Positions 8,460-9,747 of a stretch of 13,062 nt of DNA are shown in pieces. A program made the position numbers and the translations under genes. Each line of letters begins with the position of its first letter. The first letter of the stretch is position 1. The stretch is from positions 1 to 13,062 of the IMG/VR virus record IMGVR_UViG_2529292921_000005; one strand, 5' to 3'. The DNA is from a virus. Taxonomy: Duplodnaviria > Heunggongvirae > Uroviricota > Caudoviricetes. Below the pieces are notes generated by a model. That model was not told the DNA's origin. It worked only from the letters and a program-made list of their open reading frames with translations, and ran no database searches.

Positions 8460-9215
8460 ATGACACAGACAGAATCAGAGATTCTGGCGCACGCCCGGCG
8501 ATGTGCGCCAGCGGAGTCGTGCGGCTTCGTGGTGAGAACGCCGGAAGGGGAAAGATATTTTCCCTGCGTGAATATCTCCGGTGAGCCGGAGGCGTATTTC
8601 CGGATGTCGCCGGAGGACTGGCTGCGGGCAGAGATGCAGGGTGAGATTGTGGCGCTGGTCCACAGCCACCCCGGTGGTCTGCCCTGGCTGAGTGAGGCTG
8701 ACAGGCGGCTGCAGGTGCAGAGCGATTTGCCTTGGTGGCTGGTCTGCCGGGGTGAGATTCATAAATTCCGCTGTGTGCCGCATCTTACCGGGCGGCGCTT
8801 TGAGCACGGGGTGACGGACTGTTACACGCTGTTCCGGGATGCTTATCATCTGGCGGGGATTGAGATGCCGGACTTTCATCGTGAGGATGACTGGTGGCGT
8901 AACGGCCAGAATCTCTATCTGGATAATCTGGAGGCCACAGGGCTGTATCAGGTGCCGTTGTCAGCGGCGCAGCCGGGCGATGTGCTGCTGTGCTGTTTTG
9001 GTTCATCGGTGCCGAATCATGCCGCCATTTACTGCGGCGACGGTGAGCTGTTGCACCATATTCCTGAACAACTGAGTAAACGAGAGAGGTACACCGACAA
9101 ATGGCAGCGACGCACACACTCCCTCTGGCGTCACCGGGCATGGCACGCATCTGCCTTTACGGGGATTTACAACGATTTGGTCGCCGCATCGACCTCGTGT
9201 AAAAACGGGGGCTGA
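8460..9215 (+). CDS. K: tail tip assembly protein K (JAMM/MPN metalloprotease-like N-domain plus NlpC/P60-like C-domain)
   Basis: 251-aa ORF from ATG 8460; complete JAMM signature E(19)...H68-S-H70-x7-S78-x2-D81; GVTDCYTLF Cys and NHAAIY His typical of NlpC/P60. The last ~5 codons (SCKNGG*) are probably altered by the same 1-nt change that breaks I. Confidence 0.85.
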   Translation: MTQTESEILAHARRCAPAESCGFVVRTPEGERYFPCVNISGEPEAYFRMSPEDWLRAEMQGEIVALVHSHPGGLPWLSEADRRLQVQSDLPWWLVCRGEIHKFRCVPHLTGRRFEHGVTDCYTLFRDAYHLAGIEMPDFHREDDWWRNGQNLYLDNLEATGLYQVPLSAAQPGDVLLCCFGSSVPNHAAIYCGDGELLHHIPEQLSKRERYTDKWQRRTHSLWRHRAWHASAFTGIYNDLVAASTSCKNGG

Positions 9216-9747
9216 AGCCATCCGGGCGTTGTCCACACAGCTCCCGGCGTTTCGTCAGAAACTGAATGACGGCTGGTATCAGGTGCGCATTGCCGGGCGT
9301 GATGCAGGTGAAACCGAATTATCTGCCCGTCTTAATGAGCCGCTGGCAAATGGTGCCGTGATCCACATCGTGCCGCATCTGGCGGGAGCTAAAAGTGGCG
9401 GTGTGTTTCAGGTGGTGCTGGGGGCGGCGCTGATTGCGGTGGCATGGTGGAACCCTGTGGGCTGGCTGGGTGCCGCGGCTGTATCGGGCATGTATGCGGC
9501 AGGGGCCAGTATGATCCTGGGTGGTGTGGCCCAGATGCTGGCACCGAAAGCCCGGACGCCCACAGCGACCAGCACGGATAACGGTAAGCAGAACACCTAT
9601 TTCTCATCACTGGATAACATGGTTGCCCAGGGCAATGTTCTGCCTGTTCTGTACGGTGAAATGCGCGTGGGGTCTCGTGTGGTTTCTCAGGAGATCAGCA
9701 CGGCAGATGAAGGGGACGGTGGTCAGGTTGTGGTGATTGGCCGCTGA
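9101..9747 (+). pseudogene. I: tail tip assembly protein I, frame-disrupted near 9194-9197 (N-terminal 32 codons in one frame, remainder in another)
   Basis: ATG 9101 (GAGAGAGG upstream) encodes MAATHTLPLASPGMARICLYGDLQRFGRRIDL, then hits TAA at 9200-9202; the frame one base over continues RVKTGAEAIRALSTQLPAFRQ...VVIGR to the TGA at 9745-9747 and has no ATG/GTG start between its upstream stop (9073) and 9229. Span is 647 nt, not a multiple of 3. Confidence 0.7.

What the first reader, a model, noticed from the sequence alone, without database searches (positions are those of the whole stretch)
9101..9230. Frame change in gene I inside the K/I overlap, which also lengthens K
The I start codon and its first 32 codons (ubiquitin-like N-terminus MAATHTLPLASPGMARICLYGDLQRFGRRIDL) are in one frame ending at TAA 9200-9202, while the rest of I is in the adjacent frame with no usable start of its own. 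A single missing base around CTC|GTG (9194-9199) explains it; CTCCGTG would restore one ORF. Because K overlaps here, the same change shifts the K stop from the TAA at 9200-9202 to TGA at 9213-9215, giving K a slightly different, longer C-terminus. Unlike the L lesion, this one is not in a homopolymer.
Basis: partly seen in the sequence, partly recalled or inferred. Interest (0 to 1): 0.55.

Follow-up and report, generated by a model that had tools for sequence, protein, structure and literature searches.

The report
Probable sequencing-error frameshift in gene I
One missing T splits the lambda-type tail gene I, and slightly lengthens the overlapping gene K, in this draft E. coli prophage contig, but the gap occurs in no other sequence and looks like a base-calling error in a 2012 draft assembly, not biology.

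Summary
I starts at ATG 9101 and stops at TAA 9200-9202 after 33 codons. The rest of I (9196-9747) lies in another frame. K (8460-9215) runs 4 codons past its usual stop. The cause is one missing T: relatives read CGACCTTCGTGTAA and the window reads CGACCTCGTGTAA (T 9195). So it is a TT-to-T contraction, not a lost C.

No other sequence examined shares the gap. All 80 related viral contigs chosen by the K N-terminus carry the extra base, as do 9 loci with an identical tape-measure protein, lambda, Tritos, cdtI, mEp460 and the E2348/69 prophage. Exact-pattern scans of three collections found nothing.

The window is a whole draft contig, AIEW01000004.1, from the E. coli DECA collection. It has 0 private substitutions but 2 private 1-nt deletions (here and T6-to-T5 in L). 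Three sibling DECA contigs show other private run-length indels, one of them A5-to-A4 in I only 6 nt away. Two siblings encode an intact I identical to the repaired window protein. Background loci show 246 private SNPs against 23 private indels.

Most likely (about 0.7) this is a sequencing or assembly error. A real recent mutation (about 0.27) is not excluded, because J carries an IS66-family insertion. There is no sign of programmed frameshifting. Low interest.

The parts
8460..9215 (+). Gene K (tail tip assembly protein K, with JAB/MPN and NlpC/P60 domains). It is 251 aa here. The last two residues are changed (FV to SC) and four are added (KNGG), because the deletion moves its stop from TAA 9200 to TGA 9213.
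   Evidence: Translation. Pfam PF14464 matches residues 3-105 and PF00877 matches 111-224, so the altered tail lies outside both domains. The repaired K is 247 aa.
9101..9202 (+). 5' fragment of gene I: codons 1-32 plus Val, then TAA. It encodes the first third of the ubiquitin-like domain.
   Evidence: PF06805 spans residues 14-97 of the repaired I.
9195..9195 (+). Site of the 1-nt gap. A single T stands where every relative has TT (or TG): ...GACCTTCGTG... in relatives and ...GACCTCGTG... here.
   Evidence: Alignment A1. blastn indel lists. 80 of 80 K-anchored loci carry the extra base.
9196..9747 (+). Remainder of gene I (codon 33 to the stop) in the -1 frame relative to its own start. The first start-like codon is TTG 9229, which gene callers used for a 172-aa product. 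It contains the C-terminal plug domain that sits in the tail-tip lumen.
   Evidence: PDB 8iyk chain I matches at E=7e-107. gpI residues 135-223 form a trimer in the lambda tail tip (PMC10721106).
7865..7869 (+). Second private 1-nt deletion: a T5 run in gene L where relatives have six bases (T6 in most). It splits L into 7758-7961 and 7790-8455.
   Evidence: 165 of 165 loci carry an extra base here. The repaired L is 232 aa. Coordinates checked.
12896..13062 (+). End of an IS66-family element (GTAAGCGACTCG...) that interrupts gene J. The contig ends inside it.
   Evidence: Homology to J in relatives stops at about 12895-12899. The tail of the window matches IS66-family transposase regions. Sequence read.

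Best explanation
The frame change is most likely a consensus error in a draft genome assembly: one T of a TT pair was under-called. Both gene I and the normal K stop are probably intact in the real prophage.

Shown: the window is a whole 13,062-bp contig of a 2012 DECA-collection draft. The gap is absent from every other sequence examined. The contig's only private differences are two 1-nt contractions of T runs. Sibling drafts from the same project carry their own, different, private run-length indels in L, I and J.

Inferred: these are technical run-length miscalls of the pyrosequencing type. Co-assembly of reads from similar prophages in the same genome may have made them worse.
For: (1) Source. 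The truncated J protein of the window is on record in only one contig, AIEW01000004.1 of GCA_000249075.2, length 13,062, which is the whole window. Accessions AIEV-AIEZ belong to the E. coli DECA collection drafts (PMC3558956).

(2) The gap is private.
- Exact-pattern scans for the gapped junction found 0 matches in genome contigs, viral contigs and metagenome contigs. The intact junction gave at least 120 viral contigs.
- All 80 loci chosen by the K N-terminus carry the extra base.
- All 9 loci encoding an identical tape-measure protein are intact.
- 4,232 of 5,426 complete E. coli genomes hold this region. The best full-length matches all span one base more than the query.
- No other contig encodes the altered K.

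(3) Mutation spectrum. The window has 0 private substitutions in 12,355 covered positions but 2 private 1-nt deletions, both in T runs. Eighty IMG/VR loci (405 kb) have 246 private SNPs against 23 private indels. Fisher p = 0.008 for the window alone.

(4) Same project, different errors.
- L221 (AIEX) has A5 to A4 in I, 6 nt downstream of this site, and a second indel in J.
- L218 (AIFD) has G4 to G5 in J.
- L219 (AIFB) has 2-3 one-base insertions in L.
- Pooled over the four DECA contigs this is 7 indels against 2 SNPs. Compared with 23 against 246, p = 2.7e-6.
- Of 11 other control loci, 9 had no internal private indel. The exceptions were L209, an NCTC-numbered assembly with homopolymer insertions, and L201, whose indels lie in a divergent part of J.

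(5) L218 and L219 encode an intact 215-aa I identical to the repaired window protein.

(6) Circumstantial: contemporaneous E. coli genomes from the sequencing centre I recall, from memory only, as having produced the DECA drafts used 454 Titanium reads assembled with Celera (PMC3491183).
Against: The sequencing platform of this particular assembly could not be confirmed, because the Hazen 2012 paper is not held. No reads can be inspected. A TT-to-T under-call is an unusual error for a well-covered consensus. The prophage already carries an IS66-family insertion in J, so it may really be defective, and further inactivating mutations would then be tolerated. About 5% of database copies of I (4 of 78) are also broken elsewhere, so broken I genes are on record in other assemblies, whether real or technical. 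No near-identical sibling of this exact prophage was available: the closest relative is about 99% identical.
Confidence: 0.7

Rival explanations
1. A real, very recent 1-nt deletion by replication slippage at TT in a prophage that is already defective. It would truncate gpI after 32 residues of its ubiquitin-like domain. It would leave at best a start-less or TTG-initiated C-terminal fragment, and it would give gpK a harmless 4-residue extension. Together with the L frameshift and the IS in J, the prophage could not build tails.
For: J is interrupted by an IS66-family end at 12896, so selection for tail function may already be lost. L carries a second frameshift. Broken copies of I at other positions are on record in 4 of 78 related loci. 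gpI is needed for tail-tip assembly, and its Ub-like domain is removed by gpK during ordered assembly (PMC12908700; PMC10721106), so the lesion would be inactivating.
Against: There are no private substitutions on the branch that would have produced two indels, against a background of about 10 SNPs per indel. No other record shares the gap. Sibling drafts of the same project show different private run-length indels in the same genes, which points to a technical cause.
Confidence: 0.27
2. Recoding. I would still be made from the two frames, either by a ribosomal shift near the stop or by termination at TAA 9200 followed by re-initiation at TTG 9229. One possible shift is tRNA-Val moving +2 from GUG 9197-9199 to GUA 9199-9201 at the 'shifty stop' GUG-UAA, which would give I lacking only Arg33.
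For: This rests on sequence reading only. GTGTAA offers an overlapping Val codon in the correct frame next to a stop. Frame 1 is open from upstream of 9101. There is no tool evidence for any shift.
Against: The arrangement is not conserved: 80 of 80 loci are intact at the site and 74 of 78 have single-ORF I. There is no X XXY YYZ heptamer in the I frame between 9101 and 9202. Such shifts are generally thought to be inefficient (my own knowledge, not tested here). A gap private to one sequence cannot be an evolved signal.
Confidence: 0.01
3. A collapsed-repeat consensus artefact, which is a sub-case of the best explanation. Reads from two similar prophages that differ at CTT/CTG (here) and TTTTTT/TTTCTT (in L) were aligned with half-gapped columns, and the consensus dropped the column.
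For: Both gap sites coincide with positions that vary among related prophages. CTG variants appear, and TTTCTT variants. E. coli genomes carry a median of 2 copies of this region. The contig is short and, at least at its 3' end, stops inside a repeated element (an IS66-family end).
Against: Variable sites are dense in this module, so the coincidence is not significant. It cannot be tested without the reads or the other contigs of the assembly.
Confidence: 0.15

Closest known systems
Bacteriophage lambda K-I gene pair (NC_001416: K 14276-14875, I 14773-15444)
   Same: Same gene order (L, K, I, J). The I start lies inside the 3' end of K, a 103-nt overlap in lambda. The first 32 residues of I are identical. 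The repaired I aligns end to end with lambda gpI (PDB 8iyk chain I, E=7e-107).
   Different: The window lacks one T at the Leu32 codon (CTT in relatives, where Arg33 CGT follows), so I is split and K ends 4 codons later. The central Gly/Ala-rich segment of I is a different allele of 215 aa rather than 223 aa.
Intact I alleles in sibling DECA drafts (AIFD01000008.1, AIFB01000003.1) and phages Tritos and cdtI
   Same: The junction sequence is identical apart from the one T. The I protein of AIFD and AIFB is identical to the repaired window I.
   Different: They have TT and a single 215-aa ORF.
Homopolymer-length indel errors in draft or long-read assemblies (for example AIEX01000023.1 and the NCTC-numbered assembly UGEE01000003.1)
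   Same: Isolated private 1-nt indels in runs of identical bases that fragment conserved phage genes, with few or no private substitutions.
   Different: The run here is only two bases long, which is shorter than typical for this error class.
Lambda G-T programmed -1 frameshift
   Same: Two frames are used for one tail-assembly product in the same gene cluster. The window itself has the G-T site, GGGAAAG at 4426-4432.
   Different: G-T is conserved and has a slippery heptamer. The I frame change is private to one contig and has none.

Membership tests
Lambda gpI tail tip assembly protein (Pfam PF06805 Lambda_tail_I) | Sequence match to the family profile and to solved lambda gpI | tested here: met
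   The repaired I scores 85.4 bits against PF06805 (cut-off 23.8), residues 14-97. PDB 8iyk_I matches at E=7e-107 over the full length.
Lambda gpI tail tip assembly protein (Pfam PF06805 Lambda_tail_I) | Encoded as one ORF that starts inside the 3' end of K and lies upstream of J | tested here: not met
   In the window the ORF is split at codon 33. In relatives the feature holds: 74 of 78 have a single ORF, and lambda does too.
Programmed ribosomal frameshift site | The two-frame arrangement is conserved among homologues | tested here: not met
   80 of 80 K-anchored loci carry the extra base. All loci with an identical H protein are intact. The gapped pattern gave 0 hits in three collections.
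Programmed ribosomal frameshift site | Slippery heptamer X XXY YYZ in the upstream frame before the stop | tested here: not met
   None between 9101 and 9202.
Programmed ribosomal frameshift site | A full-length trans-frame protein is made | not testable with these tools
   This needs protein-level data.
Sequencing or assembly indel error (run-length miscall) | The indel lies in a run of identical bases and is confined to one assembly | tested here: met
   TT to T at 9195 and T6 to T5 at 7865-7869. Both are private.
Sequencing or assembly indel error (run-length miscall) | Excess of private indels over private substitutions, also seen in other assemblies of the same project | tested here: met
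   Window 2 indels and 0 SNPs. Four DECA contigs pooled, 7 and 2. Background 23 and 246, p = 2.7e-6.
Sequencing or assembly indel error (run-length miscall) | The platform is known to be prone to such errors, and reads disagree with the consensus | tested here: inconclusive
   The DECA paper is not held. Contemporaneous E. coli genomes from the Institute for Genome Sciences, the centre I recall (from memory, unverified) as having sequenced the DECA drafts, used 454 Titanium with Celera.
Real prophage pseudogene (decay) | The lesion is reproduced in an independent sequence of the same lineage | tested here: not met
   No other contig carries the altered K or the gapped junction. However, no sequence of the same strain was available.
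Real prophage pseudogene (decay) | Other disabling lesions in the same prophage | tested here: met
   An IS66-family end interrupts J at 12896. The L frameshift is of the same doubtful kind.

The most novel reading that the evidence does not exclude
The gap is real, and gpI function is still partly supplied. This could happen through a low-level +2 shift of tRNA-Val at GUG-UAA (9197-9202) onto GUA. It could also happen through termination and re-initiation at TTG 9229, which would yield the C-terminal plug domain without an intact ubiquitin-like domain. Either would make a natural test of whether the Ub-like domain and its removal by gpK are dispensable.
Probability: 0.01. Interest if true: 0.45.

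Novelty: not a real feature. Interest (0 to 1): 0.05.

Why it matters
It matters little for biology. The K-I overlap and the single-frame I gene are standard lambda features. What it offers is a caution: frameshifts in these 2012 DECA draft contigs should not be read as prophage decay or recoding without read support. If the gap were real, it would only add one more disabled tail gene to a prophage whose J gene is already interrupted by an IS element.

Tried and rejected
1. I looked for the same gap elsewhere.
- Exact-pattern scans of genome contigs, viral contigs and metagenome contigs all gave 0.
- megablast of 76-nt and 301-nt queries against 5,426 complete E. coli genomes gave no gapless full-length hit among the listed best matches. 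The 27 records at 99% or more were not listed. They must be partial matches, because a full gapless hit would rank first. That is an inference.
- Exact look-ups of the altered K found nothing for the 251-aa form and only the window's own contig for the 203-aa form.

2. I looked for siblings through the 172-aa I fragment. This found three DECA contigs. Two of them are intact at the DNA level, so a 172-aa gene call is a start-choice artefact and not evidence of a shared lesion.

3. I tried to read Hazen et al. 2012 for the sequencing platform, but it is not held. Searches for AIEW, the GCA number and DEC1B gave nothing useful.

4. I considered the idea that both gaps sit at sites that differ between paralogous prophages, as a collapsed-consensus artefact would predict. 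This is true, but it does not discriminate, because variable sites are dense.

5. I rejected programmed frameshifting: the arrangement is not conserved and there is no slippery heptamer.

6. The A3-to-A2 difference at 8453 is not a lesion. Tritos and cdtI share it, and it leaves the L stop codon intact.

Full report
**What is there.** The window is a lambda-type head and tail module (D, E, FI, FII, Z, U, V, G, T, H, M, L, K, I, J).
- K runs from ATG 8460 to TGA 9213-9215 and is 251 aa.
- The I start codon, ATG 9101, lies inside K, as in lambda. There K is 14276-14875 and I is 14773-15444, a 103-nt overlap.
- From ATG 9101 the frame gives MAATHTLPLASPGMARICLYGDLQRFGRRIDLV and stops at TAA 9200-9202.
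- The rest of I (RVKTGAEAIRAL...VVVIGR) is read from 9196 to TGA 9745-9747 in the neighbouring frame. Its first start-like codon is TTG 9229.

**The cause.** Alignment of 9080-9260 with lambda, Tritos, cdtI and mEp460 has a single gap: CGACC-TCGTG against CGACCTTCGTG.
- The E2348/69 prophage and ten further loci show the same single gap.
- The missing base is one T of a TT pair, at the third position of the Leu32 codon (CTT), which is followed by Arg33 (CGT). It is not a C.
- The site is therefore a minimal homopolymer.
- Inserting a T restores a 215-aa I and a 247-aa K ending ...AASTFV at the TAA.
- In K the change alters only the last two residues and adds KNGG. This lies outside the JAB (3-105) and NlpC/P60 (111-224) domains.
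- In I it cuts the PF06805 ubiquitin-like domain (residues 14-97) at residue 33.
- gpI's Ub-like domain is reported to be removed by gpK during ordered tip assembly (PMC12908700). Its C-terminal residues 135-223 form a trimeric plug in the tail-tip lumen (PMC10721106; PDB 8iyk).
- A real lesion here would therefore be inactivating.

**Is a two-frame I normal? No.**
- I took 80 viral contigs chosen only by similarity to the K N-terminus, so the choice was blind to the junction. All 80 carry the extra base.
- Of 78 of these loci with a complete I region, 74 have I as one ORF of 213, 215 or 223 aa.
- The gapped junction gave no exact match in the species-representative genomes, the viral contigs or the metagenome contigs. 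The intact junction hit at least 120 viral contigs.
- 4,232 of 5,426 complete E. coli genomes hold this region. The best matches all span one base more than the query.
- There is no X XXY YYZ heptamer in the I frame upstream of the stop.
- A conserved programmed shift is excluded.

**Where the window comes from.**
- The truncated J product (9808-13005) is on record in one contig only: AIEW01000004.1 of GCA_000249075.2. Its length is 13,062 bp, so it is the whole window.
- Accessions AIEV-AIEZ belong to the E. coli DECA collection drafts published in 2012 (PMC3558956).
- The contig ends 167 nt into an IS66-family element that interrupts J at 12896.

**Real mutation or technical error?** I compared each position of the window with about 200 related loci.
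- In 12,355 positions covered by at least 10 loci there is no private substitution. The single flagged position, 12896, is the first base of the IS.
- There are two private 1-nt deletions: this one, and T6 to T5 in L at 7865-7869.
- The same test on 80 IMG/VR loci (405 kb) gives 246 private substitutions and 23 isolated private indels, about 10 to 1.
- Two indels with no substitution gives Fisher p = 0.008.

Three other DECA drafts carry a related prophage with the same I allele, and each has its own private run-length indels.
- AIEX01000023.1 has A5 to A4 in I, only 6 nt downstream of the window's gap, plus one indel in J.
- AIFD01000008.1 has G4 to G5 in J.
- AIFB01000003.1 has two or three one-base insertions in L.
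- Between them these three contigs have 0-2 private substitutions each.
- Pooled over the four DECA contigs, 7 indels and 2 SNPs against 23 and 246 gives p = 2.7e-6.
- AIFD and AIFB encode an intact I identical to the repaired window protein.
- Of 11 other control loci, 9 had no internal private indel. One exception was an NCTC-numbered assembly with homopolymer insertions. The other, L201, has its indels in a divergent part of J.

This indel-only, run-associated, assembly-specific pattern is what base-calling or consensus errors produce. It is not what mutation produces. E. coli genomes of the same period from the Institute for Genome Sciences, the centre I recall (from memory, unverified) as having sequenced the DECA drafts, were made with 454 Titanium reads and the Celera assembler (PMC3491183). 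That would fit, but I could not confirm the platform for this assembly.

**Weighing.**
- I put about 0.7 on a sequencing or assembly artefact. This includes a possible collapsed-paralogue consensus effect. Both gap sites coincide with sites that vary between prophages, but that coincidence is not significant.
- I put about 0.27 on a real, very recent slippage deletion in a prophage already disabled by the IS in J.
- I put about 0.01 on any recoding. A +2 shift of tRNA-Val at GUG-UAA onto GUA, or re-initiation at TTG 9229, is conceivable from the sequence. Nothing supports either.
- Only the reads or re-sequencing can settle the question.

**Comparison with what is known.** The locus is an ordinary member of the lambda K-I pair. 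Apart from the one base there is nothing new in its architecture. It is not a member of the programmed-frameshift class, because conservation and the slippery site were both tested and not met. Interest is low. The useful outcome is a warning about frameshifts in these draft contigs.

Noticed in passing
window 7865-7869 (gene L, 7758-8455): T5 where 165 of 165 related loci have one more base (T6 in most). This splits L into 7758-7961 and 7790-8455. It is private to this contig and of the same kind as the K/I gap, so it is probably the same technical cause.
   Followed up: yes
window 12896-13062: Gene J is interrupted by the end of an IS66-family element (GTAAGCGACTCG...), and the contig stops 167 nt into it. 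The J ORF reads through to a stop at 13005, giving a 1065-aa product that lacks the receptor-binding C-terminus. No complete E. coli genome showed the same junction.
   Followed up: partly
L221 (AIEX01000023.1) 881-893, equivalent to window 9200-9205: A sibling DECA draft has its own private frameshift in I: GTAAAAAC to GTAAAAC, 6 nt downstream of the window's gap. K there keeps its normal stop.
   Followed up: yes
L004 (lambda NC_001416) 1134-1364 against 1277-1876, equivalent to window about 8594: The lambda reference lacks one base (GGC-TATTT against GGCGTATTT). As a result the first 45 or so codons of K (MTQTESAILAHARRCAP..., part of the JAB domain) lie in a different frame from the annotated 199-aa K. 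Relatives have a 247-aa K. This is either an old sequence error or a strain-specific change in the reference.
   Followed up: partly
window 4426-4432: GGGAAAG lies near the end of G (4019-4450) and ahead of T (4477-4890). This is the expected lambda G-T programmed -1 frameshift site, and it is intact.
   Followed up: partly
window 8453: The L stop region reads CAGTAATCC where lambda, mEp460 and E2348/69 read CAGTAAATCC. Tritos and cdtI share the shorter form, so this is natural variation in the L-K spacer and not a lesion.
   Followed up: yes
L209 (UGEE01000003.1) 2278, 2671, 3827, about 9884: An NCTC-numbered assembly of a near-identical prophage has private extra bases in A5 and G5 runs (2278, 2671, 3827) that fragment E and Z, plus a private 1-nt deletion in K near 9884. 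This is a second example of assembly-specific run-length indels in this module.
   Followed up: partly
L130, L176, L185 and others (IMG/VR loci): Four of 78 K-anchored loci have a truncated I ORF (37, 86, 145 and 154 aa) at other positions. Whether these are real decay or errors was not examined.
   Followed up: no
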